This document shows positions 1,512-31,486 of a DNA stretch of 64,000 nt, piece by piece. Under the pieces are notes generated by a model. That model ran no database searches and was not told the origin of the DNA. It saw only the letters and a list, made by a program, of their open reading frames with translations. The number at the start of each line of letters is the position of its first letter. The stretch's first letter is position 1. Both the position numbers and the translations under genes were made by a program. The DNA is from a virus: the IMG/VR virus record IMGVR_UViG_3300008450_000020, positions 1 through 64,000 of that record. One strand, given 5' to 3'.

Positions 1512-2107
1512 TCAGTCATCATCTACGCCGCTCAGTCGATCAAAAACCCGCCCCTGTAGTAGCTTCATTTGTTGACCAAGGGGCAGATACAGCCCCCGGT
1601 GCTACGTATTCAGTACCAGTACCTTCTGGGACTACTGCGGGAGATTTACTTCTAATGTACTTTTGGTACAAGGGTGATAACGGTTTTGATTTGCAGTCTT
1701 CTGGATGGTCTATTGGTTATGGGTACTATTTTAAGTACGCCGGGGCTGGAGAAGTTAGTTACGATTTTTCCTCTCTAAATACAGGTTCAACAGGAACTTA
1801 TAGGGTGGTCATACTTCGAGTTACAGGTGGGACTTTAACTGTTGGAGGTGCTGAGGTGGGGCCATCGGGTACATCTTTTTCAGTACCAGCAATTACACCT
1901 TCGGCAGCTAACTCATTAGTAATTTGTAGGGCGATTGATAGGGTCAATTATGCTGGGTTTGATATTCCGGGTTTCACCAGCATAACAAATGGTGCAGAGC
2001 GTAGATTTTCATGGAAGGTATTCTCAGCAAATACAGGAACAGTTTTAGTTAATGCTAGCTCAGGAACAGATAACTACGGACAGCTAATTGGAATCGCACC
2101 AGCTTAG
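1508..2107 (+). CDS. Tail fibre-associated beta-rich protein
   Basis: Overlaps the fibre stop (ATGA). VPVPSGTTAGDLLL motif is typical of fibre-tip or receptor-binding accessory domains. Confidence 0.6.
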   Translation: MISHHLRRSVDQKPAPVVASFVDQGADTAPGATYSVPVPSGTTAGDLLLMYFWYKGDNGFDLQSSGWSIGYGYYFKYAGAGEVSYDFSSLNTGSTGTYRVVILRVTGGTLTVGGAEVGPSGTSFSVPAITPSAANSLVICRAIDRVNYAGFDIPGFTSITNGAERRFSWKVFSANTGTVLVNASSGTDNYGQLIGIAPA

Positions 2108-2119
2108 GAGAAATAAATT

Positions 2120-2626
2120 ATGCAAAGAGTAAAAGTAAATACGGGTGAAGTTTTAAGCCTTTTCCAACTTTCTCAAACAGAAAACATATCGCTCAACCTG
2201 CAAGGCGACCCTGATTTAAGTTTCTTGGGTTACGAACGATTTGTCGAAACACCGATGCCGACAGTGTCCAATGCCATCGTTGACCGAGACGGCGTAGAGC
2301 TTGTTGATGGGGTATGGCAGACAAAGTGGAAAGTGACTCCATTCACGACAGAGGAAATCGCATATAGGCAGAGAGTCATAGCTAAGGCTTCAAGACAAGC
2401 GCAAGTTGATGCGATCAAGGTTACAACGTCAACAAATAAAACGTTTGACGGTGATGAGACTTCTCAAACGCGAATGGCGCGAGCAATCATTGCCATGCAA
2501 GCGACAAATACAGAAACGGTAACTTGGGTATTAGCTAATAACACACCTACACAAGCTACGGTAGCAGAATTGGTAGAAGCACTGGCTTTAGCTGGTGCAG
2601 CACAAGCAGCGATATGGGTGATCTAA
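2120..2626 (+). CDS. Tail fibre assembly-like protein (DUF4376-like)
   Basis: C-terminal FDGDETSQTRMARAI...WVLANN...ELVEALALAG...W pattern; AGGAG RBS. Confidence 0.7.
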   Translation: MQRVKVNTGEVLSLFQLSQTENISLNLQGDPDLSFLGYERFVETPMPTVSNAIVDRDGVELVDGVWQTKWKVTPFTTEEIAYRQRVIAKASRQAQVDAIKVTTSTNKTFDGDETSQTRMARAIIAMQATNTETVTWVLANNTPTQATVAELVEALALAGAAQAAIWVI

Positions 2627-2871
2627 TGAAAAGACTACTAAATTTACTTATAGCTCTGGATCAACTGGTTTATGTAATCATTACCTTTGGTTCAGGTAAT
2701 CCAGATGAAACCTGTTCTAGTGCAGCTTATCGTATGGAGATGAAAGGTAAGTTCTTTGGCTTCTGGCGACCAATCATAGATGGTATCTTCTTCTTTGATA
2801 ATAATCATTGTAAAGAAAGCTATGAAAATGAATTGTTACTAAAAGAATTCAGATTAGAAAAAACCAAGTAA
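2626..2871 (+). CDS. Conserved phage hypothetical protein
   Basis: LLIALDQL...GNPDETCSS.AYR...ID..FFFD.NHC motif, common downstream of fibre genes. ATG overlaps the upstream stop (TAATG). Confidence 0.7.
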   Translation: MKRLLNLLIALDQLVYVIITFGSGNPDETCSSAAYRMEMKGKFFGFWRPIIDGIFFFDNNHCKESYENELLLKEFRLEKTK

Positions 2872-2958
2872 ATTACTTTATCATCGGTAATTGTTTAGCT
2901 GGTTTGTTGTACAATCTTCCGTACTCAGAGCCTTTTAAACTAAACGCTTATAAAACTG

Positions 2959-2989
2959 AATAGAGGGCTTAAATTGCCCTCTATTTTTA
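2959..2989 (+). terminator. Rho-independent terminator
   Basis: AATAGAGGGC-ttaaatt-GCCCTCTATT followed by a T run. Confidence 0.75.
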
Positions 2990-3025
2990 TGATTAACTGA
3001 ACTATTTATTAATAAGAGGCTCTAT

Positions 3026-3427
3026 ATGTCTGATCCTGAAAAAACATTTACCCAAGATGAGCTTAATCATATTGTGGCTAGAGAGACGGCTAAATTACAG
3101 TTATCTGACTTCAAGAATAACTTGGCGTTAATGAATCAATCTAACACGCAAGCTCTTGCAGATATCAACGCTAAGATAAATCAGATATTTAATATGATCT
3201 CCGAACAGAACAAAGAACAGCGTGAAGACCAAGAGAAACTCATTGAATCTTTAAAAAAAGAAATAGAAAAGGACTTCGCATCAAAGATTGATATGATCAA
3301 TATTTCAAATCGTCTTGATCAACTTTGGATCAAGATATCGGTAGCAATCATGACCTCTATCACATTGGGAGGAATCATTGGTTGGGTAATCACTACTGCT
3401 ATTAGTGCTGCGGGGATAAACAAATGA
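3026..3427 (+). CDS. Coiled-coil protein with C-terminal TM helix (holin/antiholin candidate)
   Basis: Single C-terminal hydrophobic helix; first gene of the lysis cassette. Confidence 0.5.
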   Translation: MSDPEKTFTQDELNHIVARETAKLQLSDFKNNLALMNQSNTQALADINAKINQIFNMISEQNKEQREDQEKLIESLKKEIEKDFASKIDMINISNRLDQLWIKISVAIMTSITLGGIIGWVITTAISAAGINK

Positions 3428-3672
3428 TAAAAAGAATTCGTAAACCAAAATTAATAGCTGATTGGAAACAGGTGCTGAAACACACCTTAGCAGTCAAATT
3501 TGTAATCATCTCAGGCATTTGCTCTGTAGGTGAAATCATTATTGCATATTATCCTGATCTATTTCCTCGTGGAGCTATGGCAGGCTTATCAGGTACATTT
3601 GCTTTGCTTGGTTTGATATCTCGTTTTTATTTGCAAAAACAATCTGGGGATGATGATGGCGATCCAAGATAA
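3424..3672 (+). CDS. Putative holin (2 TM)
   Basis: 82 aa, basic N-terminus, KLIADWKQVLK motif, two TM segments, directly upstream of the endolysin. Confidence 0.7.
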   Translation: MIKRIRKPKLIADWKQVLKHTLAVKFVIISGICSVGEIIIAYYPDLFPRGAMAGLSGTFALLGLISRFYLQKQSGDDDGDPR

Positions 3673-4138
3673 ATCTAAACGTATAGGAGCAGCAACTCTT
3701 ATTGCGTCAGCAATAGCAATTCCTGCAGAAGGTTTGCGTCAATTTGCTTACTATGATCCTCCGGGTATTCTTACTGTATGTTATGGCTCAACAACGAATG
3801 TTGAGAAAGGTAAGAAATACAGCCTAGAAGAGTGTAAGAGCCGTTTAGATTCAGATATGCTATATGCGGTCAGTACTGTTGAAAGATGCGTTCCTGGGCT
3901 TCCTGTAGAGGTCCTAGCTGCATTTGGAGATGCAGTGTATAACCTAGGCCCAAGCATTGCATGTGATCAGAAGAAATCTACTGCTGCAAGATACCTGTAT
4001 AAAGGTGAATTACTTCAAGCGTGTAATCAATTACCAAGATGGAATAAAGCTAAAGTTATGGGGGTATCGATAGAACTCCCTGGACTTACTACAAGACGTT
4101 CTAAGGAGAAAGATTTATGTATAAGTGGGCTATCTTAG
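3650..4138 (+). CDS. Endolysin, GH24 lysozyme with SAR-like N-terminus
   Basis: Catalytic E-x8-D-x5-T (EGLRQFAYYDPPGILT), an Ala/Gly-rich N-terminal anchor, and a C-terminal LPGLTTRRSKE motif. Confidence 0.92.
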   Translation: MMMAIQDKSKRIGAATLIASAIAIPAEGLRQFAYYDPPGILTVCYGSTTNVEKGKKYSLEECKSRLDSDMLYAVSTVERCVPGLPVEVLAAFGDAVYNLGPSIACDQKKSTAARYLYKGELLQACNQLPRWNKAKVMGVSIELPGLTTRRSKEKDLCISGLS

Positions 4139-4614
4139 CTATTGGTTTAATCGCAGGAGGCTACGGAGTAGCCCAGCTTCCTGATTATTATCGTAATCAA
4201 GGTGCTGTAGCAGAGCGTACTAAAATCAATAAAGAAATTGCTGCTGCAGTTGATAAAGCAAAGCTTGAAGTTCAGTTAGAGAATGCTGAATTAAAACTTA
4301 CTTATGAAAAGAATTTTAATGAATGGAAGGTGAGTTATGCTAAAGAACTTGATCGTATTAATGCTAATCGTAATCCTACAGGGTTGTTGTTCAACGCAAG
4401 TAAAATATGTGCCGGTTATACCAGAGGAGAAACCAAAACAAGTAGTACCGAAGGAAGCAATGAATCCTCCACCAGAATCCGGTTACTTCCAGAAGAAACT
4501 TCAAAAGATCTTGATCAATTAGTTTATGAAGCTGAACTTATATCTGCATCGTTGAGACTGGCTCAAGAAGCAATAAATAAGAGTTCTTGTATGATTGTTG
4601 AGGGAAAAGAATAA
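4117..4614 (+). CDS. i-spanin (Rz-like)
   Basis: N-terminal TM helix and coiled coil, follows the endolysin, and contains an embedded lipoprotein ORF. Confidence 0.8.
   Translation: MYKWAILAIGLIAGGYGVAQLPDYYRNQGAVAERTKINKEIAAAVDKAKLEVQLENAELKLTYEKNFNEWKVSYAKELDRINANRNPTGLLFNASKICAGYTRGETKTSSTEGSNESSTRIRLLPEETSKDLDQLVYEAELISASLRLAQEAINKSSCMIVEGKE
4337..4522 (+). CDS. o-spanin (Rz1-like lipoprotein), embedded in the i-spanin
   Basis: Signal peptide with lipobox ILQG-C, Pro-rich mature part, +1 frame inside the Rz-like gene, GAAGGTGAG upstream. Confidence 0.8.
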   Translation: MLKNLIVLMLIVILQGCCSTQVKYVPVIPEEKPKQVVPKEAMNPPPESGYFQKKLQKILIN

Positions 4615-4829
4615 TGGATGTTATTGACGTAGCCAGTGAACAAGAAGCAGTAATGCTTTCTGCACAGATTCAACAAGCTAGTAAGACAAGAAATAAAATT
4701 ACCCCTAAAGGTAAATGCCATTTTTGTGATGAGGATGCAGAAGAACAGAAACTATTTTGTAATAGTGACTGTTCTTCTGATTATGAGAAGGAACAAAGAA
4801 TGTTACAACGTAAAGGCAGAGAAGCTTAA
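4614..4829 (+). CDS. TraR/DksA-like C4 zinc-finger protein
   Basis: N-terminal DxxDxA (MDVIDVA), CHFC...CNSDC zinc finger, C-terminal helix. Confidence 0.65.
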   Translation: MDVIDVASEQEAVMLSAQIQQASKTRNKITPKGKCHFCDEDAEEQKLFCNSDCSSDYEKEQRMLQRKGREA

Positions 4830-5044
4830 TGATCTTCTAAAGACTGTAAGACAGCCAAAGATTTAATAGTCAAATCACTTACTGGAAGATGTTTTAATGT
4901 TTGTGCATCTAAAATTGCTTCTTTACACTTTCTGTAATCGTCCATATTGAGTATGGGCGAAGAAAGATTTAATAAGCCATCTATTAAAATACTTCTACCA
5001 TACCCATTAGGGATTTCTGCAAAGTAATGGTAGAGAGTTCTCAC
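4826..5044 (-). CDS. Hypothetical protein
   Basis: ORF in a tightly packed minus-strand operon. Confidence 0.6.
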   Translation of the reverse strand: MRTLYHYFAEIPNGYGRSILIDGLLNLSSPILNMDDYRKCKEAILDAQTLKHLPVSDLTIKSLAVLQSLEDH

Positions 5045-5045
5045 A

Positions 5046-5696
5046 TTACACCTTAACTTTCTTAGTCCTTGGTTTCTTTGCTGGAGTTACAGGAACAACT
5101 GCTTTAGTTACTACAGCAGGTTTGACTGTAATATCAAAACCAGCTTTCATCAGCTTTAAAGCTACCCGTTCAGGGTTAACTGTGAGTGCATACACAGGTC
5201 TGTCAGGACAGTGTTTAGCAAACTCAGGAAAGTCTTTAAGTAACTTTTCTACTGTATTGTATGCAGCCAAAGTAGAAGCTAATTCAGCTTCAATTTCTTT
5301 TTTCTTTTCTCGCCAAACAACTACCTCAGCAAGCATTTCTTGTAATTCCGGATGTTTTTTCAAATCAGCAAGGGTAAACTCTTTGAATTGAAAATCATTA
5401 GGTACTGCAATAGTGTCATTGAATGTAACATTCGTTGACCAGCTATGAGGTGCCACCACAGGATTATAGAAGTTGGTTCCAGAAACTGCACTAATGTTAC
5501 TGCGCACTGCTAGCCAATTTTTTGGCAGATGCTTTGTAGCATCTGTGAATTCTTTTGGTACTTGGTTCTTTGCAATCTGAGTAAAGAAAGCTTTGATATC
5601 TTTTTCAAGCTGATCTAATTTACCTGGAATTTCAGTTGCTTTGTAGATTGCTGATTGAATTACTTTACGAGATTCATTGGTTAAACGAATTGACAT
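5046..5696 (-). CDS. Nmad5-like (nucleotide modification associated domain 5) protein
   Basis: N-terminal RLTN.SR..I and C-terminal TVEKLLKDFPE pattern, recalled from memory; basic tail. Confidence 0.5.
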   Translation of the reverse strand: MSIRLTNESRKVIQSAIYKATEIPGKLDQLEKDIKAFFTQIAKNQVPKEFTDATKHLPKNWLAVRSNISAVSGTNFYNPVVAPHSWSTNVTFNDTIAVPNDFQFKEFTLADLKKHPELQEMLAEVVVWREKKKEIEAELASTLAAYNTVEKLLKDFPEFAKHCPDRPVYALTVNPERVALKLMKAGFDITVKPAVVTKAVVPVTPAKKPRTKKVKV

Positions 5697-5697
5697 G

Positions 5698-5994
5698 TTA
5701 TTTACCTTCTTTCTTTGGTTTTGGTTTAAAAGAATTGCTGTGTACGTTAGAGCACATACGTTGCCTTACCGTTTCCATCTCATCGGAACCTACCCACCAT
5801 TTAAGAGCAAGTTCTACTTGATCTGATTTGAGGGTGTCTTTAGCAAGGTTTACACCAGCTACAACACCCTCTTGGTATGCTTCCTCAGATTTGTAGTCAA
5901 AGTAAGTTAACGCAACTCCTGACCATATTAGGAGGATTCCAAATAGGTATGCATAGTGAAGTCGATTAGGGGTGACTTTGTTCGTTGGAAGCAT
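5698..5994 (-). CDS. Hypothetical membrane protein
   Basis: N-terminal TM helix. Confidence 0.6.
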   Translation of the reverse strand: MLPTNKVTPNRLHYAYLFGILLIWSGVALTYFDYKSEEAYQEGVVAGVNLAKDTLKSDQVELALKWWVGSDEMETVRQRMCSNVHSNSFKPKPKKEGK

Positions 5995-7215: not shown

Positions 7216-7470
7216 TTAAAAATTGAGTAATTTTTTTGCTGCAATTATTTGAGGAGGAATATTATCTGCGAATATAGGACTCCAACAAGAATATGTTGAG
7301 TCATTTGAAACTGTGAATGCACCACATTGATACCATACACCCTCATAAATAGAATATACAATGGAATTGATTGGGTATCTATTTGCATTAACAGAGTCGT
7401 CATCAGGAAGGGTTTTTAATACATAATCAGGGTATTCCCATAACAGAAACATAATGTCTTTATTGTCCAT
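7216..7470 (-). CDS. Small protein; outlying member of the C-terminal-motif family (see findings)
   Basis: Ends WSPIFADNIPPQIIAAKKLLNF; RBS context AAAGGAAAATTATG. Confidence 0.65.
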   Translation of the reverse strand: MDNKDIMFLLWEYPDYVLKTLPDDDSVNANRYPINSIVYSIYEGVWYQCGAFTVSNDSTYSCWSPIFADNIPPQIIAAKKLLNF

Positions 7471-16394: not shown

Positions 16395-16916
16395 TTAATT
16401 TTTGGAAGTTAAAAACTTTTGTGCGGCAATAATGCCAGTGAGATCCGGGGTTGGAATAGCAGCTTCTAAGAGAGTCTTAGCATCTTTTTCTGCTTGAGCA
16501 AAAACTAAATCTCTTAATTTCATTTTGATTCTATGAACGTATTCAGCTCTTAAAGATTTAGTGATTTCATCTAACTCTTTTTTAGTAAGTTTGGGAATTT
16601 CACATTGGTCTAACCAAGCTTCTATTGATTCTTTTTGAATCCGTTGTAAGTAATCCCCTGCAATAGAATTTCCAGATCTACCATTGCAATGATCCAATTT
16701 AAATTCATTGTGCCAATCTTTATCAAAGCCCATGAGTTTAAGAAGAATTTCTTTCTTCTTTTTATCCATGTCATTGAATACCATATCCCGAATTTGTTCA
16801 GGAGTTTGTTTGGCTTTCCACTGATTAACATAAATGTTAATCATAGAAATATATTCTTCCATTGGATTCAATGAAGGAATAATCTCTTCAGGATCTTCTT
16901 GAGTTTCTAATGGCAT
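16395..16916 (-). CDS. Hypothetical protein
   Basis: 173-aa ORF overlapping the end of the ClpX-like gene. Confidence 0.65.
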   Translation of the reverse strand: MPLETQEDPEEIIPSLNPMEEYISMINIYVNQWKAKQTPEQIRDMVFNDMDKKKKEILLKLMGFDKDWHNEFKLDHCNGRSGNSIAGDYLQRIQKESIEAWLDQCEIPKLTKKELDEITKSLRAEYVHRIKMKLRDLVFAQAEKDAKTLLEAAIPTPDLTGIIAAQKFLTSKN

Positions 16917-17713
16917 GATAATTCCAGTGTTTTTTGAAAGGTAATTTTCTTGGCTTGTTTTTCACCAAGATTACCGTTAATGAAAAATTGGTGAATTAAC
17001 GTATTAATCATACGAATACCAATCGTATTTTTTTCAAAAGAGTCTGTGAGAATTTTCATGATTGGATTCACTACATCTGCTTTTTTGGTTTTTGGAAATA
17101 GCGTTAAATATGTCTGCAACAAAACACTGTTTATCAGAATATTCTTCAAGTCTGCAAGAGTTACTTTTTCTAGACCATAAACTAAACCAACACGCCCTAA
17201 AAATTCAGTTTTAACACCGAATTCACGAAGACGATCGATATCAATGTTCTCTTCGCCATTGAATGCGCCGGCAAAGATGAATAAGACATTGTCTGTCTTG
17301 ATATTGATGTATTTACCAAAATCACCATAAACGGAGGCGGAGCCTTCTAATACTTTTAGGAATTCGTTTTGAACTCCGTTAGTAGTTTCATGGGCTAATG
17401 CGGAATTTGAATTTCCACTGATGAATAACTTATCGAATTCATCAACGAAACAAATCACAGGTTGTCCACCAAGTTGAGTTAGTGGAGCTAATGCTTTTGA
17501 TACGCTGTTACCAGCAGTACCTTCTTTTGTTAAGGCAGCAGCATTGACTTCAATAAAAGCCAACTTAAATTCTTCTGCCAAGGTTTGAATGATGTGGGAT
17601 TTCCCACTACCACTTGGTCCAGTAATAATGAAGTGAGGACGGATCATCGCTTCACTTGATTCAAATATACTGAGGATTTTGCGAATGCTATTGACGGTTT
17701 GTTCTGAAGACAT
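16907..17713 (-). CDS. ClpX/HslU-like AAA+ ATPase, minimal form
   Basis: GPSGSGKS, FVDEFDKL, GVQNEFLKVLEG, DNVLFIFAGAF and FGVKTEFLGRV match the ClpX core. Confidence 0.85.
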   Translation of the reverse strand: MSSEQTVNSIRKILSIFESSEAMIRPHFIITGPSGSGKSHIIQTLAEEFKLAFIEVNAAALTKEGTAGNSVSKALAPLTQLGGQPVICFVDEFDKLFISGNSNSALAHETTNGVQNEFLKVLEGSASVYGDFGKYINIKTDNVLFIFAGAFNGEENIDIDRLREFGVKTEFLGRVGLVYGLEKVTLADLKNILINSVLLQTYLTLFPKTKKADVVNPIMKILTDSFEKNTIGIRMINTLIHQFFINGNLGEKQAKKITFQKTLELSCH

Positions 17714-24484: not shown

Positions 24485-24520
24485 AAAAAAAAATGAGACA
24501 CCTCAATTAAGAGATGTCTC
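24485..24520 (-). terminator. Rho-independent terminator after RNAP2
   Basis: GAGACA(C)CTC...GAG(A)TGTCTC stem plus A9. Confidence 0.7.
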
Positions 24521-24571
24521 GGCACTACTACTTCAAAATAGGGGCAGGATGCCCCATGAAAGTTAATTGAA

Positions 24572-25822
24572 TTATGTTAAAGCATAATTAGACTTAAGAA
24601 TCAAACTAGATAAGTTGTTTGATTTCTTGGTGTAAGTTCCTTTGACACCATGAATCTGACTGAGGATATCTGAGAGTATTTCACTATCAGCTAATTCAGC
24701 AAAGATTTCAATGTAATGCTTACGTAACTGTTCCATATATTTAGGAGAACATTTATATTCATCATGAATAGTAATAATCTCAAATGGAGCATGTTCATTC
24801 ATACTCATACAGATCTCACGTAACTTAATCAACAATGAAGTAGGAATTGCTTTTGCATCTTCATAAGTCAAATAAGGAATCATTGTGATGTCTGTCATCT
24901 TGCTGCGTTCATACTGCTCCAAGTAGTAAGCCAACTTAGGAGAAGGTGTGCGGCCATGATAGCTAGTTGCGTATGTATTGCGATAATTAATCTCTGCATT
25001 AAGGATACTCAGTGCATTAATTAATTCATTTGGTTTGTAGTTACAACGACGGTGCATTGAACGTAAGATGTAAGCATCAATAGAGTGAATCACATTAGCT
25101 GCATTACTTAAACCAGATTTAGTACCTTCATTCTCATAATAATAATAAGTGAAAGTAGCATGATCCAATTCATCAACTTCAATACGAGCTTCCTTTTTCT
25201 GCATTACTTTTACACGCGCATAGAAGCCATCAGGAAGTGTCCATGCATGTACTTTAGCATTTGCTTGCCATGAACTCAAAAGCTCTTGGAGAAGCTCCCA
25301 TGCACCCGGAGCTACAATATTTGCAGCTTGATAGAATGCATTCAATTCAGGGGTATCTTCACCGAAGACTTCTTTAGGTACAAGATTTGAACCATAGAAT
25401 GAAGTCATCATAGCGCGCTTAGCATTATCTCTTGAAATATCAACTGATAAGCCTTGTTGAATAAGGATATTATTCATGGCTTGGGTTAATGAGGAATACG
25501 CATCTGCACGTACATCAGGATCAACTAAACCAGTTGCAGTAGCGCCGGCTATACAGCCTGTTATGGCACTCATGATTTGGATACCTGAGCATACTGAGTC
25601 TAGTCCTACAAGGTGCCCTGTAGGTTTTCCTGATTGAACCTGACGGATAGCTAAAACAGCTTTTTTGTACAGAGGTACTGTTTCTGCTTGAGCCGATAAA
25701 GCTTCAAGATTTTTGATGTTATCTGTAGCCCATTGAATACGTTCTTCAAATGTGACTTTATCTAAACCAAAGTGATTGGCTAAGTCGATGAGCATGTATT
25801 GAAATGGTGTATAAGATTTCAT
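24572..25822 (-). CDS. RNA polymerase II large subunit (N4 gp16/RNAP2-like)
   Basis: FGLDK.TFEERIQW, motif A GLDSVCSGIQ, motif B RDNAKRAMMTSFYG, ANVIHSIDA, motif C IHDEY. Confidence 0.95.
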   Translation of the reverse strand: MKSYTPFQYMLIDLANHFGLDKVTFEERIQWATDNIKNLEALSAQAETVPLYKKAVLAIRQVQSGKPTGHLVGLDSVCSGIQIMSAITGCIAGATATGLVDPDVRADAYSSLTQAMNNILIQQGLSVDISRDNAKRAMMTSFYGSNLVPKEVFGEDTPELNAFYQAANIVAPGAWELLQELLSSWQANAKVHAWTLPDGFYARVKVMQKKEARIEVDELDHATFTYYYYENEGTKSGLSNAANVIHSIDAYILRSMHRRCNYKPNELINALSILNAEINYRNTYATSYHGRTPSPKLAYYLEQYERSKMTDITMIPYLTYEDAKAIPTSLLIKLREICMSMNEHAPFEIITIHDEYKCSPKYMEQLRKHYIEIFAELADSEILSDILSQIHGVKGTYTKKSNNLSSLILKSNYALT

Positions 25823-25872: not shown

Positions 25873-26133
25873 TTAATTGCCTATTAAGGCAATGAGTGCT
25901 TGAACTTGTGAAGGTAATTGTTCTAGTTGAGCAGTTTCCCAATTTGAACCCCCATTAGACATAGGGACGTACACATAGTAAATATGTTGTTCTCCGTCTC
26001 TATCTAAATATTGCCAGATAGAACCGTGTTCACGTTCATTAATATCTTCATGTACATCGTAATAAAGTATTTTTAATGTATCCGGAAATATCAATCTACC
26101 TAATAAATTTGGTTTTCTATGAAGGGTTGGCAT
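25873..26133 (-). CDS. Array member 11, small protein with shared C-terminal motif
   Basis: Ends WETAQLEQLPSQVQALIALIGN. Confidence 0.75.
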   Translation of the reverse strand: MPTLHRKPNLLGRLIFPDTLKILYYDVHEDINEREHGSIWQYLDRDGEQHIYYVYVPMSNGGSNWETAQLEQLPSQVQALIALIGN

Positions 26134-26141
26134 GTACTTTC

Positions 26142-26399
26142 CTATTCTATTAGAGAAATTAAAGCTTTAATCTCAGGAGGAATATCTGTATAAGAGATGT
26201 CTCTCCATGACTCGATTATCTCTACAGAATGACAAATAAGGTGCAAACTATCCCCATATTGATGTCCTCTGATGTAAGTCCAAATATCCCCTATCTGTTT
26301 ATCATGAATGTTTTCCCCGCTATCAAAGAATAAAACTTCTTTGGTTGAGGGTCTTACAGTGAATCCTACTGTTTTAGGAGTTGGGTTTGTTGTAGGCAT
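26142..26399 (-). CDS. Array member 10
   Basis: Ends WRDISYTDIPPEIKALISLIE; paralog of 25873-26133. Confidence 0.75.
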   Translation of the reverse strand: MPTTNPTPKTVGFTVRPSTKEVLFFDSGENIHDKQIGDIWTYIRGHQYGDSLHLICHSVEIIESWRDISYTDIPPEIKALISLIE

Positions 26400-26408
26400 A
26401 AAGTTCCT

Positions 26409-26681
26409 TTATTTAATTAAGGTAAATGCAGCAAGTACATGAGAAGGAACTTCTGACTTATTGCGCAATAACCATCGAAAAGTTTTTGCAGAATTATTTG
26501 GAGTATGGAAATGATTCAATACTGCTTTATAAAAATACTCTTCTGTATTGGTGTGAACTCCGCATAACCATTCATGTTCTGATGAAGGAGATCTTGTATA
26601 AAAATATTCATTTTTATCCTTATGATCTACAACACATGCATTGGTTACAGAATCTACGATAATTATTTTTTCAAGGGTCAT
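26409..26681 (-). CDS. Array member 9
   Basis: Ends WLLRNKSEVPSHVLAAFTLIK. Confidence 0.75.
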   Translation of the reverse strand: MTLEKIIIVDSVTNACVVDHKDKNEYFYTRSPSSEHEWLCGVHTNTEEYFYKAVLNHFHTPNNSAKTFRWLLRNKSEVPSHVLAAFTLIK

Positions 26682-26683
26682 AG

Positions 26684-27064
26684 TTATTCCTGTTGTATAT
26701 CTAATTTAATGCCTAGTAAATTCAATAAAGATATATGTATATCAGGGATGTCTTTTGTTTCACGAATATACGTGTACATACGTCCAAAGGCATTAGCAAT
26801 AGCATTAGTTTTGATAGCGAATCCTGAAGGAGAAATAAATAAAGTATCAGGAGGGTATAAAATAGATACGTCAATACACTCATTAGGATTCATCACCGCG
26901 TTATACATGTGAACACCGTGCCCAATCATAGGTAATTGATCGGGTTCTATCACAATGATGAATTTAGTGTCTCCCCCAATTGGATTATCAAGACTTGGGA
27001 TAACATCTAAAATAATTAAGTTTTCCTTGAATTCTTCAAGAAATTTGACAGGTGTTTCTAACAT
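26684..27064 (-). CDS. Array member 8
   Basis: Start MLETPVKF after AAGGAA; ends KDIPDIHISLLNLLGIKLDIQQE. Confidence 0.75.
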   Translation of the reverse strand: MLETPVKFLEEFKENLIILDVIPSLDNPIGGDTKFIIVIEPDQLPMIGHGVHMYNAVMNPNECIDVSILYPPDTLFISPSGFAIKTNAIANAFGRMYTYIRETKDIPDIHISLLNLLGIKLDIQQE

Positions 27065-27074
27065 AATTTTCCTT

Positions 27075-27356
27075 TTATAAATCAAGAAGTTTAATGATAT
27101 TTTTGATGTTGTCTGGAACATGTAATGCTTGTACGTGTGACCATCTGTAAATGTAAGTAACCTCTGCATTCTTACCTAAAGAAGATATTCGTTTACTTGG
27201 GTAATAAGCTCTGCACCCTACATCAACATCAAACAACCATTGATCTTTATTGGTTGCTCTTGGTGTTCTAGATTCATTGATTAATGTAACTGCCATATTC
27301 TCATCGATGATTACAAATCGAGTGTCTTTATTATTCAAGATCAAGCTCCAATCCAA
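27075..27356 (-). CDS. Array member 7 (start may be TTG at 27338)
   Basis: Ends WSHVQALHVPDNIKNIIKLLDL. Confidence 0.7.
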   Translation of the reverse strand: MDWSLILNNKDTRFVIIDENMAVTLINESRTPRATNKDQWLFDVDVGCRAYYPSKRISSLGKNAEVTYIYRWSHVQALHVPDNIKNIIKLLDL

Positions 27357-27702
27357 GTAAGGAAATCATTGCTCTGTTTTCTGCAGAAACATATTCAAAA
27401 TAATCTGCTTGAGTCCAGATCTCTGTCCAATGTTCTTCTGTTTCTTTATACACACGCATAACAAAACCATATCCATTAATGAATACAGTGTCTTCTGGAA
27501 ATAAGATAGAGATATCAATATACTTATTTTGACTGGGGTTAAATAAAGCGTCATACATCGATTCAGAATTACTGAATCTAACTGGTTCATTTGGCTCAAA
27601 TACCATAAAGAAAAATTCACCTATTTCAGAACACTTAAGAAGTAAGTCTTCTTTAAAGTATTCAAGCGTTCTATAAATTTTACGGTCAGTCATTTTCATC
27701 AC
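27331..27702 (-). CDS. Array member 6
   Basis: Ends WTQADYFEYVSAENRAMISLLGLELDLE; paralog of members 5 and 8. Confidence 0.75.
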   Translation of the reverse strand: MMKMTDRKIYRTLEYFKEDLLLKCSEIGEFFFMVFEPNEPVRFSNSESMYDALFNPSQNKYIDISILFPEDTVFINGYGFVMRVYKETEEHWTEIWTQADYFEYVSAENRAMISLLGLELDLE

Positions 27703-28045
27703 TCCGTTGAAATGATATGTTTAATAAAGACAAGGTTGCTTTAATTTGAGGAGGTAACTCCTTTAGCTTTTTAAGTGCTCTCCATTCACCACAAACAACC
27801 TTCATTGCATAAGGGAATCTACTATCTACTCCACTAAAGAAATATGTACCACTTGGGTAACGAATACTCATGTCATAAGTAGGATCATCATTACCAAATA
27901 TTGCGTAATATTGTTCTTCAGTATTACCAAATACAGGGGGTTTATTTGGTTCAAAGACGATTAAAAAATGCTGAGATCTCTCATCTGGAAATTGAATAAG
28001 TAAATCTCTCTTAAAGTGATTAAAACAGTTATACGTAAATTTCAT
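27686..28045 (-). CDS. Array member 5
   Basis: Ends WRALKKLKELPPQIKATLSLLNISF... Confidence 0.75.
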   Translation of the reverse strand: MKFTYNCFNHFKRDLLIQFPDERSQHFLIVFEPNKPPVFGNTEEQYYAIFGNDDPTYDMSIRYPSGTYFFSGVDSRFPYAMKVVCGEWRALKKLKELPPQIKATLSLLNISFQRSDEND

Positions 28046-28062
28046 AATCTTCCTTATGTGAG

Positions 28063-28329
28063 TTATTTAAGCAAAGCAAGTAATGCTTTGTATTCAGGGT
28101 TGATATACCTGTCTGGTAATACTTGAGTTCGTGAATTAGATTTCACACCAATCCAGCTATTATTTCTGAAGCAGAAATATAAATCACCGGCTTGAATAGG
28201 CGAGTAACTTCCTCTTGCTACTCCATAAAGCAAATAGGGTTCTCTTCCATTACAAGGAATAATTAGCTTTTTGAATTTAGGATCTAATGGAGGAGAATTT
28301 TCATATTCTCCATTGTCAATAATTACCAT
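28063..28329 (-). CDS. Array member 4
   Basis: Ends LPDRYINPEYKALLALLK. Confidence 0.72.
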   Translation of the reverse strand: MVIIDNGEYENSPPLDPKFKKLIIPCNGREPYLLYGVARGSYSPIQAGDLYFCFRNNSWIGVKSNSRTQVLPDRYINPEYKALLALLK

Positions 28330-28607
28330 ACGGTCCCCTCTATAAAATTTAATGGGTGTTCTGGAAGACCCCCCACATACAAAGTTAAAAATGCTTTTAT
28401 ATGTTCAGGGAATTCTTTAACAGGATTCTCTATGAAGTAATAAAATACATCTCCATCGGAATACCAAATAGTATAAAAAGGTTTTTTATCGTCACCAAAA
28501 CTATCCCATTCAGTACTAATAGGTTTATTTAGTGTGGTCATACCACAAGGAATGGTCATCATTTTAGTGAGATCATCTGTTATACGTATTTTACGAATGT
28601 TTTGCAT
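28323..28607 (-). CDS. Array member 3
   Basis: Contains PVKEFPEHIKAFLTLYVG near the C-terminus. Confidence 0.72.
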   Translation of the reverse strand: MQNIRKIRITDDLTKMMTIPCGMTTLNKPISTEWDSFGDDKKPFYTIWYSDGDVFYYFIENPVKEFPEHIKAFLTLYVGGLPEHPLNFIEGTVW

Positions 28608-28616
28608 GTAGTATCC

Positions 28617-28928
28617 TTAAGGAAAATATGAAGATAGTTCATTAAATTGTGCAGTAGTTATTGCACCTATTAAGAATAAATAATTTTTGAAGATTTCAGG
28701 AACTTCTTTGGGAGATATAACGCTTCTTTTAGAAGTGAAATTACTTAAAGTAATTCTTTCATTCTCTTTGAAGGCATAATAAATAATCCCTGCACTTGTG
28801 TAACCAACAGTAAGATTTTCTATAGCTCTATAATCTCTTGTACCTGACCCATGCACAAGGATTTCAAACCTATCTTCAAGCACTCCCTTATCTATTTGCT
28901 GTGGTACATAAACATAAAATTTAAACAT
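28617..28928 (-). CDS. Array member 2
   Basis: SPKEVPEIFKNYLFLIGA; paralog of member 1. Confidence 0.72.
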   Translation of the reverse strand: MFKFYVYVPQQIDKGVLEDRFEILVHGSGTRDYRAIENLTVGYTSAGIIYYAFKENERITLSNFTSKRSVISPKEVPEIFKNYLFLIGAITTAQFNELSSYFP

Positions 28929-28931
28929 ACA

Positions 28932-29240
28932 TTATCCTTCAATATTTCTAACACGTTTATTAATGTAATCAAGATCCTCTTTGTTTAACTCCCCTAGTAA
29001 CAATAAATAGTTTATGAAAACTTCTGGGAAATACTTAGGAAGCAAAGTCTTTCTATTAGCAGAAAATGAGTATTCACCAGCAGGTGTAGAATTGAGAAAA
29101 CAATAATAATCAATACCTTCTGCAACTAATTCATTTGTGACTTGATAAAGAGATTTTGGGTCATTCATGTCGAGTGAGTAATCAATAGTAAAATAGTGTT
29201 CTTGGCTTGGTATGTAAACGTAATACTTAAGATTGCTCAT
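28932..29240 (-). CDS. Array member 1
   Basis: LPKYFPEVFINYLLLLGE; start overlaps the RNAP1 stop. Confidence 0.72.
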   Translation of the reverse strand: MSNLKYYVYIPSQEHYFTIDYSLDMNDPKSLYQVTNELVAEGIDYYCFLNSTPAGEYSFSANRKTLLPKYFPEVFINYLLLLGELNKEDLDYINKRVRNIEG

Positions 29241-30166
29241 ATAAATACTCCATCAATGTATTCTTCCTTATGCAATTCAATCATTGCTTTCTTGAATGCA
29301 GTCCCTTGTGGATTAATGTGATAGCCTTGAGAGTAAATTCTTCCTCTCTTATCTACCTTGTGAGTTAAATGAAATTGGTTATCTTGTTCTGCAATGAGGC
29401 TGTAGAAGCGATAACTAATCTCTTTGTGTTTCTTCCATTGGTTTCGTTTATCTGGAGTATCCAAAGTAAATGTAGGATCTTCAGATACCTTACAAAGGAA
29501 CTCTGTACATAACTTCAATTTCACTTGGTTCATCGTATTGAGAACATCAATACAGATATCCCCATTGTGATGATTGTGGGGGCCTAGGATCAATGAATCA
29601 TCATGAGTGAGATAACCACTCGAATAATTATTGATGAGCTGTCTAGGCTCACAAACCATGGGTGGAAGATATTGTGTATTTTCGATGAAACCTACAAGTT
29701 CTTCTGAGATAGGGATTCTTGAGACAATAACCAAGGAAGCATACTTATTCATTTTAAGAATATCGAATGCATCTGTGGAACATAGAACTGCTACTAGCTC
29801 TGCAACAGTTTTAATACTGTCTGCCTTGTCACTGAATTTGAGTCTTCCTGCCAACTCACCAGTGATACTGGTAAACAGCTCAGGTGTTTGGCAATAAGAA
29901 ATACCAACATAAATATCAATCACAAGCTCTCTAATATTCAAGGGTTTCAATTGCGCTACACGAGCATTCTTTGATTTGTATGAATAAGTCTTACTCATAT
30001 AATCTTTGATTGCTTGTACACCTTCATCAATCTTACCAATCATAAATGTATTACTAAGAATCTCTTTTCTAATTTTCTGGTCAATATGCTTTCTGTTATA
30101 ACGAAGTTCAGTCCATTCTTGACGGACGACATTGAGCATTGGCTCATAGGAAGTATCCTGATCCAT
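29237..30166 (-). CDS. RNA polymerase II small subunit (N4 gp15/RNAP1-like)
   Basis: YLPPMVCEP and DKRGRIYSQGYHINPQG (DxRGR motif of T7-type RNAPs). Confidence 0.93.
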   Translation of the reverse strand: MDQDTSYEPMLNVVRQEWTELRYNRKHIDQKIRKEILSNTFMIGKIDEGVQAIKDYMSKTYSYKSKNARVAQLKPLNIRELVIDIYVGISYCQTPELFTSITGELAGRLKFSDKADSIKTVAELVAVLCSTDAFDILKMNKYASLVIVSRIPISEELVGFIENTQYLPPMVCEPRQLINNYSSGYLTHDDSLILGPHNHHNGDICIDVLNTMNQVKLKLCTEFLCKVSEDPTFTLDTPDKRNQWKKHKEISYRFYSLIAEQDNQFHLTHKVDKRGRIYSQGYHINPQGTAFKKAMIELHKEEYIDGVFI

Positions 30167-30196: not shown

Positions 30197-30237
30197 AAAA
30201 AAAGAGTTACTTACCCTTGGATAACCAAAGGTAAGTT
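30197..30237 (-). terminator. Putative terminator upstream of RNAP1
   Basis: ACTTACC(C)TTGG-ataa-CCAA(A)GGTAAGT stem, A7 to the left. Confidence 0.55.
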
Positions 30238-30612: not shown

Positions 30613-31128
30613 TTATGGTGTAAAGGTATAACAGGTGAACCGATCATTCAGTATCTTTTCAAGCACCGGTTTGACGACAGTCCACTCTAACTCACCAGCA
30701 CCACAGCCCGGCCTAGGCAGGATTACATTATTCCAACCAAAGGCATCAGTAAGCTTTACCAATTGTTCAGCAGACTGCTTGATAATTTTAAGTTCTGCTT
30801 TAGCATGAAAGCCTGGTACAGTTTCACCAATGGCATAACTATTTTGGACATGGCTTACAATATTATTCCCTTGGTTTACTGTATAAATAGGTTTAACAGG
30901 AAATGCAATCAATTGAATATTGTTGTATTCCATAATGATCTGAGTGACATTACCATTCTTCAACATGAGCTTACCTAGTGTGTTATGTATGTCTGGGATA
31001 GCACGAGCTATACTCAATGCAATACCTCTACCCATAACTGCAGTACCCTTGCTAGTAACAAATCCATTTGTTGTGACACATAAAGCATCACAATCAACAT
31101 GCAACATATTTCCAAATGCTTCTTTCAT
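30613..31128 (-). CDS. Macrodomain protein (ADP-ribose binding/hydrolase, DarG-macro-like)
   Basis: GNM...TTNG...VMGRGIA...FPVK...LPRPGCGAGELEW; start MKEAFG after CAGGAG. Confidence 0.85.
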   Translation of the reverse strand: MKEAFGNMLHVDCDALCVTTNGFVTSKGTAVMGRGIALSIARAIPDIHNTLGKLMLKNGNVTQIIMEYNNIQLIAFPVKPIYTVNQGNNIVSHVQNSYAIGETVPGFHAKAELKIIKQSAEQLVKLTDAFGWNNVILPRPGCGAGELEWTVVKPVLEKILNDRFTCYTFTP

Positions 31129-31154
31129 TTTTAACTCCTGTTTATCTTTAATAA

Positions 31155-31193
31155 GAAAAATAAAGCTCATCATCCAATAAGGATAATGAGCTT
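31155..31193 (-). terminator. Putative terminator after the gp2-like gene
   Basis: AAGCTCAT(C)ATCC-aataa-GGAT(A)ATGAGCTT with an A tract. Confidence 0.6.
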
Positions 31194-31201
31194 CTTTGAG
31201 A

Positions 31202-31486
31202 TTACAGACCGAAGCCTGGGAGAGCAAACTCTGCCGGAGCAGAATTGACTGCCGTGTATTCCAAGATCAACGCAGAGAGCAAGATCGCTACGTTATTCTC
31301 GTCTGCGTCTAGCCACTCACGTAAGTGTTTCTGATCTATGTTGGAATCTTTTAAACCGATTGCACCCAACTTTTTACGACTACCATCCTTCTTTGGGATG
31401 TAGAAATTCAAATAACCGGTTGGGTTATCTTTTACTGCATTTGCATTGTTACCAGAATCAGATTGATTGTCTTTGTTAAAGGCCAT
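31202..31486 (-). CDS. ssDNA-binding RNAP II cofactor (N4 gp2/Drc-like)
   Basis: GYLNFYIPKKDGSRKKLGAIGLK motif; early position with its own vRNAP promoter. Confidence 0.75.
   Translation of the reverse strand: MAFNKDNQSDSGNNANAVKDNPTGYLNFYIPKKDGSRKKLGAIGLKDSNIDQKHLREWLDADENNVAILLSALILEYTAVNSAPAEFALPGFGL

What the first reader, a model, noticed from the sequence alone, without database searches (positions are those of the whole stretch)
25873..29240. Tandem array of 11 divergent small genes sharing one C-terminal motif, inserted between the two RNAP II subunit genes
Seen: eleven consecutive 85-126 aa ORFs fill the 3.4 kb between RNAP1 and RNAP2. Their N-terminal parts differ, but each has a related helix-type motif at or near the end: WETAQLEQLPSQVQALIALI, WRDISYTDIPPEIKALISLI, WLLRNKSEVPSHVLAAFTLI, KDIPDIHISLLNLL, WSHVQALHVPDNIKNIIKLL, WTQADYFEYVSAENRAMISLL, WRALKKLKELPPQIKATLSLL, RYINPEYKALLALL, KEFPEHIKAFLTLY, KEVPEIFKNYLFLI, KYFPEVFINYLLLL. 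Consensus is about (W)-x7-[ILVF]-P-x2-[IVF]-K-[AN]-x-[LI]-x-L-[LI]. W-x8-P spacing is exact in four members and in the outlier at 7.2 kb. Established: gp15/gp16 are adjacent in N4, and some relatives carry a few unrelated small inserts. Inference: a variable aromatic, beta-rich N-domain plus a constant docking tag is the layout of an adaptor library (compare F-box or SOCS-box proteins). Each member could recognise a different host target, such as a defence protein, and bring it to one shared partner: RNAP II, a host protease or the phage AAA+ ATPases. I know of no described family like this.
Basis: partly seen in the sequence, partly recalled or inferred. Interest (0 to 1): 0.9.

Follow-up and report, generated by a model that had tools for sequence, protein, structure and literature searches.

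The report
Expanded small-protein family beside phage RNA polymerase genes
Eleven small early genes wedged between the two RNA polymerase II subunit genes of an N4-like phage belong to a fast-evolving, undescribed protein family that occurs at this same spot in many related phages, and its function is still unknown.

Summary
Eleven minus-strand ORFs (25873-29240) fill the gap between RNAP1 and RNAP2, and a twelfth copy lies at 7216-7470. With each subgroup left out of the motif model, 7 of 11 members still rank 1-2 among about 286 window ORFs. Conservation is strongest at codon position 2, so the motif is a protein feature and not a DNA signal.

The array is not unique. An iterative profile seeded only with the window's 12 copies recruited 97 more ORFs in 33 of 88 related N4-like loci. 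Of these, 81 lie between RNAP1 and RNAP2, 16 lie just upstream of RNAP1, and 0 of 3182 other ORFs were recruited. LIT1 gp18, gp20 and gp22 are among them. One relative has 17 copies. Five complete relatives with adjacent polymerase genes have none.

Across the wider family the N-terminal hairpin and an aromatic strand recur, so this is one small domain whose C-terminal helix is its best-kept part. There is no Pfam or PDB match and no convincing fold match.

The docking-tag/adaptor idea is neither shown nor excluded. My best reading is lineage-expanded accessory early proteins, probably directed at the host. The first stage of this scan also noted the subfamilies and the twelfth copy.

The parts
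29237..30166 (-). RNAP1 (N4 gp15-like small subunit of RNA polymerase II), upstream flank of the array
   Evidence: 309-aa ORF. tblastn finds it next to RNAP2 in 88 of 89 loci, up to 65% identity.
28932..29240 (-). family member 11 (102 aa). The motif is followed by a 20-residue helical tail.
   Evidence: Best score of the window copies against the family HMM (34 bits). AF2 model with a 91-sequence alignment: pLDDT 64 overall, 82-84 over the C-terminal helices.
28617..28928 (-). family member 10 (103 aa), full-length paralogue of member 11
   Evidence: blastp E 1e-12 to member 11. Leave-group-out rank 1.
28323..28607 (-). family member 9 (94 aa). The motif lies 28 residues before the stop.
   Evidence: Leave-out rank 1, E 0.0012.
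28063..28329 (-). family member 8 (88 aa)
   Evidence: Leave-out rank 1.
27686..28045 (-). family member 7 (119 aa), subgroup with members 6 and 4
   Evidence: blastp E 4e-14 and 7e-8. Leave-group-out rank 1, E 2.5e-4.
27331..27702 (-). family member 6 (123 aa by the longest start; 120 aa from 27693 by the public gene call)
   Evidence: Weakest motif (Ser in place of Pro; leave-out rank 79), but a full-length homologue of members 4 and 7.
27075..27356 (-). family member 5 (93 aa by the longest start; 87 aa from 27338 by the public gene call, which has a GGAG site upstream)
   Evidence: Leave-out rank 1.
26684..27064 (-). family member 4 (126 aa from the ATG at 27064; the open frame reaches 27169)
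   Evidence: 126-aa gene call.
26409..26681 (-). family member 3 (90 aa), the most divergent copy
   Evidence: Leave-out rank 19. Not re-found by the final family HMM at E<=0.01.
26142..26399 (-). family member 2 (85 aa), paralogue of member 1
   Evidence: blastp E 3e-12. Leave-group-out rank 1, E 2.2e-4.
25873..26133 (-). family member 1 (86 aa)
   Evidence: Leave-group-out rank 2.
24572..25822 (-). RNAP2 (N4 gp16-like large subunit), downstream flank of the array
   Evidence: 416-aa ORF. 532 phage records match by tblastn.
7216..7470 (-). displaced twelfth family member (84 aa)
   Evidence: Motif with W-x8-P spacing. Found by the family profile in the whole genome. Has a 45%-identical homologue, P0012, in the public protein library.
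30209..30236 (-). terminator-like hairpin just upstream of RNAP1
   Evidence: Consensus match only.
24495..24555 (-). two terminator-like hairpins just downstream of RNAP2. No such site lies on the minus strand inside the array, so RNAP1, the array and RNAP2 look like one transcription unit.
   Evidence: Consensus matches only.

Best explanation
The eleven ORFs, plus a twelfth at 7216-7470, are real early genes. They appear to be co-transcribed with the two RNA polymerase II subunit genes.

They belong to a single, fast-evolving family of small proteins. Members are about 65-125 aa, mostly acidic and rich in aromatic residues. The family occurs only beside RNAP1/RNAP2 in a patchy subset of N4-like phages. 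It has been expanded by tandem duplication independently in several lineages: 12 copies here, 17 in the sister lineage, 14 or more in another.

Each protein is one small domain. It has an N-terminal beta-hairpin, one or two aromatic strands with a conserved Trp, a variable loop, and a strongly hydrophobic C-terminal helix. The helix motif is roughly [DE]-hydrophobic-P-x-[ED]-hydrophobic-[KRQ]-[AMT]-x-L-L-hydrophobic-hydrophobic-G.

Shown here: homology, locus restriction, accessory status, and protein-level constraint on the motif.

Inferred: these are dispensable early host-interaction proteins (host take-over or counter-defence). The C-terminal strand-helix module is the conserved structural core, and possibly also a common interface. 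The rapidly changing N-terminal and loop surfaces would set what each copy binds. Copy number rises and falls with the hosts met.
For: One family by descent:
- Subgroups share full-length similarity (E 2e-13 to 7e-8).
- The motif links subgroups in leave-group-out tests.
- Significant best hits are mostly within the same genome: window 7 of 8, L034 13 of 15, L012 5 of 10.

Wider family and locus:
- The window-only profile gives a single hit in the whole 72.5-kb LIT1 record. It lies in gp22, between RNAP1 and RNAP2 (E 0.0024).
- hhalign of the window copies against the Litunavirus copies gives P 4.6e-4 over 34 columns.
- The iterative HMM converged at 109 ORFs out of 3961: 12 in the window, 81 between RNAP1 and RNAP2, 16 within 800 nt upstream of RNAP1, and 0 of 3182 elsewhere in the loci.
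- In five complete family-bearing genomes all 35 profile matches lie at this locus.

Accessory status:
- The RNAP1-RNAP2 gap ranges from 0 to 4671 bp.
- 0 of 5 complete (95-100%) relatives with adjacent polymerase genes have any match.
- Presence needs at least 3 changes on the RNAP2 tree.

Fast evolution:
- The sister phage (L012; RNAP2 59% identical, SH-aLRT 95) has no copy recognisably orthologous to a window copy (best E 0.02).

Protein-level motif:
- Majority fraction is 0.76 at codon position 2 against 0.55 at position 3.
- The motif sits 1-31 codons before the stop, and the next gene's AGGA site follows the stop.

One domain:
- The hairpin, the G-x-[YF] strand and the W strand recur across 91 sequences.
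- Pro is present in 82 of 91, and the position nine residues after the Pro is aliphatic in 90 of 91.
- The Litunavirus paralogues align end to end.
- AF2 predicts a hairpin plus helices, with its best confidence on the C-terminal helices.

Early operon:
- Terminator-like hairpins flank the RNAP1-array-RNAP2 block and none lies within it.
- GCGAAGC hairpin sites lie upstream at 31.5-33.8 kb.

Composition:
- Median pI 5.4, with 56 of 91 below 6. Median aromatic content 14%.
Against: - Function is entirely inferred. No member has a known relative in Pfam, NCBI names, PDB or fold libraries.
- Cross-subgroup similarity of the N-terminal parts is not significant in pairwise tests (p 0.054). The shared fold therefore rests on recurring patterns in a MAFFT alignment and on a middling model (pLDDT 64; the single-sequence model reached only 44).
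- The run of five or six hydrophobic residues in the helix is more than one face of a helix needs to pack on a small sheet. It could therefore be an interface with a partner or with another copy.
- No expression data were examined.
- The HMM recruitment is conservative and the loci are not de-duplicated, so the counts are approximate.
- The loci cover only about 6 kb on each side of RNAP2. Whole genomes were checked for 10 relatives only.
Confidence: 0.6

Rival explanations
1. Adaptor library. The conserved C-terminal helix is a docking tag that brings differently targeted N-terminal domains to one shared partner. That partner could be RNA polymerase II, another core phage protein, or a conserved host hub such as a protease or the host polymerase.
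For: - The C-terminal module is about twice as conserved as the rest (0.295 against 0.143).
- It stays recognisable after the N-terminal parts have diverged beyond detection, even between sister phages.
- The helix has five or six consecutive hydrophobic positions, which is hard to bury on one face of a small sheet.
- 77% of members (70 of 91) end within 4 residues of the motif core.
- The residue after the basic position tends to be genome-specific (Thr in L012, Met in L034/L016/L017, Ala or Asn here). This could reflect co-evolution with a genome-specific partner.
- All copies sit beside the RNAPII genes.
Against: - The N-terminal hairpin and aromatic strands recur family-wide. The 'variable domain' is therefore one fold, unlike the unrelated substrate domains of F-box or SOCS-box proteins.
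- Pro and Gly helix caps and buried leucines are what a structural core helix looks like.
- Genome-specific motif flavours are also what recent tandem duplication gives.
- The phage ClpX-like ATPase is absent from 2 of 5 family-bearing genomes and present in 1 of 5 genomes without the family.
- RNAPII exists without the family in 5 of 5 complete relatives checked.
Confidence: 0.2
2. RNA polymerase II accessory factors. The proteins act on the phage's own middle transcription, for example as alternative specificity, recruitment or assembly factors. That would explain why they are encoded between the two subunit genes.
For: - Strict linkage to RNAP1/RNAP2 across 33 loci and in five whole genomes.
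- Apparent co-transcription with both subunits.
- N4-like RNAPII is known to need small, fast-evolving ORFan cofactors: gp2 in N4 and Drc in LUZ7 (PMC7145618; abstract in the search listing and passages seen).
Against: - The family is absent from 5 of 5 complete relatives with adjacent polymerase genes and from N4 itself, where the gap is only 47 bp.
- Copy number of 0 to 17 is unlike a stoichiometric cofactor.
- Linkage can be explained by local tandem duplication plus the strong synteny of these phages.
- Most members are acidic, unlike the basic ssDNA-binding cofactor Drc. That Drc carries a higher positive charge than gp2 was seen in a passage; that it is basic overall is otherwise recalled.
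Confidence: 0.1
3. The shared 'motif' is a by-product of a nucleotide-level signal at gene junctions (ribosome-binding site, overlapping start codon, recombination site) rather than a protein feature.
For: This is exactly what is seen in two Vibrio N4-like phages. The 7-8 small ORFs between RNAP1 and RNAP2 end in ...K-M-E-x-L-L-D-E. That ending is encoded by ...ATG GAG...GAT GAG TAA, which carries a GGAG site and an 8-nt overlap with the next start codon.
Against: In the window:
- The motif lies at variable distance (1-31 codons) from the stop.
- The next gene's AGGA site mostly follows the stop.
- Conservation peaks at codon position 2, with free choice among Leu codons.
- The same motif is kept in phages of quite different sequence.
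Confidence: 0.03

Closest known systems
Litunavirus small ORFs around RNAP1 (Pseudomonas phage LIT1 gp18, gp20, gp21, gp22; PHROGs 8597, 14277, 8144, all 'unknown function')
   Same: - Same locus: one ORF just upstream of RNAP1 and three between RNAP1 and RNAP2.
- Same size, 86-117 aa.
- Same C-terminal P-x-x-hydrophobic-[KRQE]-A-x-L-x-hydrophobic-hydrophobic-G helix, preceded by a Trp strand.
- The window-only profile hits gp22 as the only match in the whole LIT1 genome.
- The iterative HMM recruits three LIT1 ORFs: gp18, plus two of the ORFs between RNAP1 and RNAP2.
   Different: - 3-4 copies there instead of 12.
- No direct PHROG HMM hit for any of the 12 window copies.
- Similarity is confined to about 34 columns in the profile-profile comparison (probability 33%, P 4.6e-4).
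- PHROGs keeps the Litunavirus copies in three separate families, and nobody has assigned them a function.
Uncultivated N4-like phages in IMG/VR with large arrays (loci L012 and L034)
   Same: - Tandem arrays of the same family fill the RNAP1-RNAP2 gap. L012 has 17 profile matches in 4.7 kb. L034 has 14 by HMM plus further visible copies in 3.9 kb.
- L012 is the window phage's sister on the RNAP2 tree.
   Different: - No one-to-one orthologues with the window's copies.
- Each array has its own motif flavour.
- These records are unannotated metagenome contigs.
F-box / SOCS-box adaptor families
   Same: Many paralogues with a short constant helical module and a divergent remainder.
   Different: - There the constant module binds a defined hub and the variable parts are unrelated domains.
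- Here no hub is known, and the variable part keeps a common hairpin and strands.
Bacterial GYF_2 domain (PF14237)
   Same: - The ESM Atlas's own model of a typical 72-aa member (pTM 0.67) has GYF_2-containing clusters among its nearest structures (TM 0.46-0.49 over residues 1-53).
- To the eye both have a hairpin, a helix, a Trp strand and a closing P-E-L helix.
   Different: - The Pfam GYF_2 model finds nothing in the window genome or in five array-bearing genomes at E<=10.
- hhalign of the family, or of a tight 17-member subfamily, against 15 GYF_2 domains gives probability below 1%.
Gene 'accordions' and host-take-over modules of other viruses (poxvirus K3L amplification, SPO1 early module; recalled knowledge)
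   Same: Tandem expansion and rapid divergence of small early genes, with copy number varying between close relatives.
   Different: - A different protein family.
- Here the expansion is pinned to one junction inside a split polymerase gene pair.

Membership tests
Inter-RNAP small-protein family of Litunavirus-related N4-like phages (defined here; includes LIT1 gp18/20/21/22) | Gene lies between RNAP1 and RNAP2 or directly upstream of RNAP1 | tested here: met
   11 of the 12 window copies lie between the two genes. Among relatives, 81 of 97 lie between them and 16 of 97 lie within 800 nt upstream of RNAP1. The twelfth window copy, at 7216-7470, is the only displaced one seen.
Inter-RNAP small-protein family of Litunavirus-related N4-like phages (defined here; includes LIT1 gp18/20/21/22) | C-terminal module: Trp strand, loop, then hydrophobic-P-x-[ED]-hydrophobic-[KRQ]-x-x-L-L-hydrophobic-hydrophobic-G | tested here: met
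   Present in all 12 window copies, with substitutions: Ser or Asn for Pro in two, and weak in 26409 and 27331.
Inter-RNAP small-protein family of Litunavirus-related N4-like phages (defined here; includes LIT1 gp18/20/21/22) | Detectable profile similarity to members in other phages | tested here: met
   Single whole-genome hit in LIT1 (E 0.0024). hhalign P 4.6e-4. The iterative HMM seeded only from the window recruits 97 ORFs. 9 of 12 window copies are re-found by the final HMM at E<=0.01; 26409, 27075 and 28063 are not.
PHROGs 8597 / 14277 / 8144 | Match to the PHROG profile | tested here: not met
   0 of 12 window copies match any PHROG (10 copies at E<=0.1; 2 copies at E<=0.01). Among the 91 aligned members, only the 4 Litunavirus-type rows match.
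Any Pfam family | Match to a Pfam-A model | tested here: not met
   For 10 window copies at E<=1 there were only two sub-threshold chance-level hits. For 91 members at E<=0.01 there were three unrelated single hits.
GYF_2 (PF14237) | Match to the Pfam model, or profile-profile similarity | tested here: not met
   No match at E<=10 in 6 genomes. hhalign probability 0.3-0.4%.
GYF_2 (PF14237) | Same fold | tested here: inconclusive
   The Atlas model of one member gives TM 0.46-0.49 to GYF_2 clusters over residues 1-53. My own model is too weak to judge (pLDDT 64; best VIA Z 3.4).
F-box/SOCS-box-like adaptor | The constant module binds one shared hub protein | not testable with these tools
   No binding data. 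The one complex prediction gave no verdict (see Tried and rejected).
F-box/SOCS-box-like adaptor | The variable parts are distinct, unrelated recognition domains | tested here: inconclusive
   Pairwise N-terminal similarity across subgroups is not significant. However, a common hairpin and strands recur in the 91-sequence and Litunavirus alignments.
Sliding-clamp-binding motif (consensus recalled, not from a call) | Conserved Gln at the start of the hydrophobic peptide | tested here: not met
   Gln occupies the relevant column in 9 of 91 members.

The most novel reading that the evidence does not exclude
The hydrophobic C-terminal helix is a portable docking element shared by up to 17 differently surfaced paralogues per genome. 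It plugs them into one common machine, most attractively the phage's own two-subunit RNA polymerase II, whose genes they separate, or else a conserved host hub. The array would then be a phage-encoded library of interchangeable specificity or targeting subunits that is reshuffled with the host.
Probability: 0.15. Interest if true: 0.85.

Novelty: new variant of a known kind. Interest (0 to 1): 0.6.

Why it matters
N4-like phages are widely isolated, including for therapy against Pseudomonas, Klebsiella and Acinetobacter, yet most of their early genes are unexplained.

This work turns eleven orphan ORFs into a definable family of about a hundred members found here. It has a clear signature, a fixed genomic address and striking copy-number swings, from 0 to 17 between phages that share the same polymerase. 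That pattern is typical of genes caught in host-phage conflict.

The family has culturable representatives (LIT1 and its relatives), so its role can be tested directly by deletion, pull-down and host-range assays.

If the conserved helix proves to be a common docking element, it would be a new way for a phage to diversify what a single machine acts on. If it is only a core helix, the family is still a useful marker of a hyper-variable accessory locus in Schitoviridae.

Tried and rejected
1. Close relatives of the window's copies.
- The word-indexed search of 5.8 billion proteins returned only the window's own proteins.
- The full HMMER scan of 1.84 billion representatives returned 10 self hits, one true homologue of the displaced copy (P0012), and one spurious 588-aa repeat protein.
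- The same indexed search with the 91-row alignment found only 2 proteins. The database-wide size of the family therefore remains unknown.

A scan of IMG/VR found nothing.

3. Structure.
- The single-sequence AF2 model of member 2 was poor (pLDDT 44).
- The model of member 11 with 91 sequences was middling (pLDDT 64).
- Foldseek against BFVD and PDB gave nothing at E<=0.001.
- VIA-align against 48,161 chains gave a best Z of 3.4.
- PDB sequence searches gave nothing significant.
- The ESM Atlas gave no usable feature hits for two members.

4. Complex prediction of RNAP1 + RNAP2 + member 11, each with its own alignment. Verdict 'no answer', score 0.00 against a mark of 0.32, controls not run. 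This counts neither for nor against binding.

5. GYF_2 lead from the Atlas. Rejected at sequence and profile level. The fold question is left open.

6. Clamp-binding-motif idea. Dropped because Gln is present in only 9 of 91 members. The consensus was recalled, not taken from a call.

7. Nucleotide-signal explanation. Rejected for this family, although it fits the Vibrio-phage arrays.

8. Co-occurrence with the phage ClpX-like ATPase. It is present in 3 of 5 family-bearing genomes and 1 of 5 family-free genomes, so there is no dependence.

9. Literature.
- Four searches and passages of PMC7145618, PMC4193335 and PMC9163698 mention no such family.
- PMC10914365 held none of the terms I looked for.
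- The library lacks most subscription journals. An early screen of Pseudomonas phage ORFans that I recall (Wagemans et al. 2014) was not seen.
- Supplementary files were not consulted and could list these ORFs.

10. Not attempted: sequencing-run and read-laying tools.

Full report
**What the window is.** The window lies in a complete 73,621-bp IMG/VR virus record with direct terminal repeats. Its 416-aa ORF at 24572-25822 (minus strand) matches annotated N4-like RNAP2 genes in 532 phage records, at best 48% identity to Litunavirus phages. The 309-aa ORF at 29237-30166 is the RNAP1 partner. So this is a distant member of the N4-like phages (Schitoviridae).

**The observation.** One search confirms eleven back-to-back minus-strand ORFs from 29240 down to 25873.
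- They are tightly packed, with gaps from -26 to +17 nt inside the array and AGGA-type ribosome sites before most starts.
- Three start codons are better placed further in than the longest ORF suggests. The resulting lengths are 126, 87 and 120 aa, in line with the public gene calls.
- All-against-all BLASTP shows three subgroups with full-length similarity: 25873/26142; 26684/27331/27686; 28617/28932. E-values run from 7e-8 to 4e-14. Only C-terminal matches link the subgroups.
- With each subgroup left out of a 20-residue motif HMM, 7 of 11 members still rank first or second among about 286 window ORFs. The other four rank 5, 6, 19 and 79.
- The family profile finds exactly these twelve places in the whole genome and no others.

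**Protein feature or DNA signal?** This needed testing because I found a look-alike that is probably a DNA artefact. In Vibrio phages VBP47 and 2.130.O, seven or eight small ORFs also sit between RNAP1 and RNAP2 and share an extreme C-terminal ...K-M-E-x-L-L-D-E. That ending is encoded by ATG-GAG...GAT-GAG-TAA. It is therefore a GGAG ribosome site plus an 8-nt overlap with the next start codon.

The window's motif behaves differently.
- It lies 1 to 31 codons before the stop.
- The next gene's ribosome site mostly follows the stop.
- Conservation is highest at codon position 2 (0.76) and low at position 3 (0.55), with free use of Leu codons.

It is a protein-level constraint.

**The wider family.** LIT1 has three small ORFs between RNAP1 and RNAP2 (gp20-22), and their C-termini carry the same kind of motif. 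The window-only profile, run over the entire LIT1 genome, gives a single hit, in gp22 (E 0.0024). Photobacterium phage TEMp-D1 has four such ORFs.

An RNAP2 alignment then fetched 80 related loci from IMG/VR, up to 62% identical. In the 88 loci that hold both polymerase genes, the gap between them ranges from 0 to 4671 bp.

An iterative HMM search was seeded only with the twelve window copies and run over 3961 ORFs. It converged at 109 members:

| Location | Members |
|---|---|
| The window's own copies | 12 |
| Between RNAP1 and RNAP2 | 81 |
| Within 800 nt upstream of RNAP1 (includes LIT1 gp18) | 16 |
| Elsewhere in the loci (3182 ORFs) | 0 |

Further points:
- 33 of 88 loci carry at least one member. 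The loci are not de-duplicated.
- By eye the HMM undercounts the large arrays.
- In five complete genomes that carry the family, all 35 profile matches (17, 6, 5, 3 and 4 per genome) lie at this locus.
- In five complete relatives with adjacent polymerase genes there are none.
- N4 itself has only a 47-bp gap.

**Evolution.**
- On a quick RNAP2 tree the window phage is sister to L012, the 17-copy phage (SH-aLRT 95).
- Even so, no window copy has a recognisable orthologue in L012. The best E-value is 0.02, while RNAP2 is 59% identical.
- In the three largest arrays, significant best hits are mostly within the same genome.
- The presence of the family needs several gains or losses on the tree.
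- Litunavirus gp22 orthologues are only 64-98% identical.

This is a rapidly diverging accessory family with repeated local expansion.

**Anatomy.** The 91-sequence alignment and its column counts show four recurring elements:
1. An N-terminal hairpin: three or four hydrophobic or aromatic residues, a turn that often contains Gly, then a second strand.
2. A G-x-[YF] strand.
3. A Trp strand.
4. The C-terminal module. Pro is present in 82 of 91 members. A hydrophobic residue precedes it in 97%. A basic or Gln residue stands four positions after the Pro in 76 of 91. There follows a run of Leu, Ile, Val or Met, with one position aliphatic in 90 of 91. A Gly closes the module in 46 of 91.

Seventy of the 91 members end within four residues of the motif core.

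The Litunavirus and TEMp-D1 paralogues align end to end, with an invariant Trp. The C-terminal module is about twice as conserved as the rest (0.295 against 0.143). Cross-subgroup similarity of the window's N-terminal parts is not significant on its own (p 0.054). The proteins are mostly acidic (median pI 5.4) and rich in aromatic residues (14%).

AF2 with the 91-row alignment gives a hairpin, a helix and two C-terminal helices. Mean pLDDT is 64, and confidence is good (82-84) only over the C-terminal helices. No library gives a convincing fold match.

The Atlas's own model of a typical 72-aa member is better (pTM 0.67). It has GYF_2-containing and DUF2239 clusters among its nearest structures. 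The Pfam GYF_2 model and profile-profile comparison give no support for that link.

**Context.** Terminator-like hairpins lie just upstream of RNAP1 and just downstream of RNAP2. None lies on the coding strand within the array. The GCGAAGC hairpin sites noted by the first stage lie upstream, at 31.5-33.8 kb. The array therefore looks like part of an early transcription unit together with both polymerase subunits. This is inferred from sequence only.

**Interpretation.**

*Shown:*
- The copies form one homologous family.
- It is restricted to the RNAP1/RNAP2 locus.
- It is dispensable for phages that have the same polymerase.
- It is expanded and diverging fast.
- A C-terminal strand-helix module is under protein-level constraint.

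*Inferred:*
- These are accessory early proteins that act on the host (take-over or counter-defence).
- The conserved module is the structural core and perhaps a shared interface.
- The variable surfaces set specificity.

In its favour, the helix is unusually hydrophobic and is the only part that survives divergence. Against it, the variable part is not a set of unrelated domains, no partner is known, and the phage ClpX-like ATPase is not consistently present. A role as RNA polymerase II cofactors is made unlikely by the family's absence from complete relatives and by its wild copy number.

**Novelty.**
- No Pfam or PDB family matches.
- PHROGs holds the Litunavirus copies in three separate families of unknown function, and none of the window's copies match them.
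- The sources' own names, where given, are 'hypothetical protein'.
- Four literature searches found no description. The limits of that library are set out under Tried and rejected.

I rate this a new variant of a known kind: a previously undefined multigene family of phage early proteins. Its mechanism is open, and culturable relatives exist in which it can be tested.

Noticed in passing
L005 (Vibrio phage VBP47) 4299-5935; L008 (Vibrio phage 2.130.O) 4270-5757: Two Vibrio N4-like phages also carry 7-8 small ORFs between RNAP1 and RNAP2. Several have CxxC...CxxC N-termini. Their shared extreme C-terminus (...K-M-E-x-L-L-D-E) coincides with a GGAG site and an 8-nt start/stop overlap with the next gene. 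It is probably a translational-coupling signature rather than a protein motif.
   Followed up: partly
L005 3608-4315; L006 5295-5957; L010 4966-5643: Larger inserts sit in the same RNAP1-RNAP2 gap in other phages. One is a 235-aa ORF that looks like a GIY-YIG-type endonuclease (by eye only). Others are about 220-aa ORFs, one of them annotated as an AP2-domain protein. The junction seems to be a general insertion hot-spot.
   Followed up: no
window 16907-17713 (-): The ClpX-like ATPase noted by the first stage is patchily distributed. It is found in 4 of 10 complete related genomes (63-71% identical), and in one of these only as a shorter 194-aa open frame.
   Followed up: partly
window 30613-31227 (-); L010 3412-3813; L011 3087-3467; L017 3819-4205; L045 3430-3927: Several relatives carry, just upstream of RNAP1, a conserved ORF of about 125-165 aa beginning ...IFVFGSNLAG.HGAGAAR... 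The window has a 204-aa ORF in the corresponding region. Whether the two are related was not checked.
   Followed up: no
protein P0011: A 588-aa protein made of four near-identical repeats scored E 1.6e-5 against the family profile, through a ...ISLLKG... stretch. It looks unrelated (a repeat artefact) and was set aside.
   Followed up: partly
L012 (IMG/VR locus) 1336-5940: The sister phage's array has 17 profile matches in 4.7 kb, the largest seen. Nearly every copy ends ...F-[KR]-T-x-L-L-L-[LM]-G.
   Followed up: partly
L090-L094 (genome contigs): N4-like RNAP2 genes (45-54% identical) lie on contigs of bacterial genome assemblies (Xenophilus, Vreelandella, Larsenimonas, Acinetobacter). Three of these contigs are phage-sized at about 74-76 kb, and one is a 914-kb contig. 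The family was not looked for in them.
   Followed up: no
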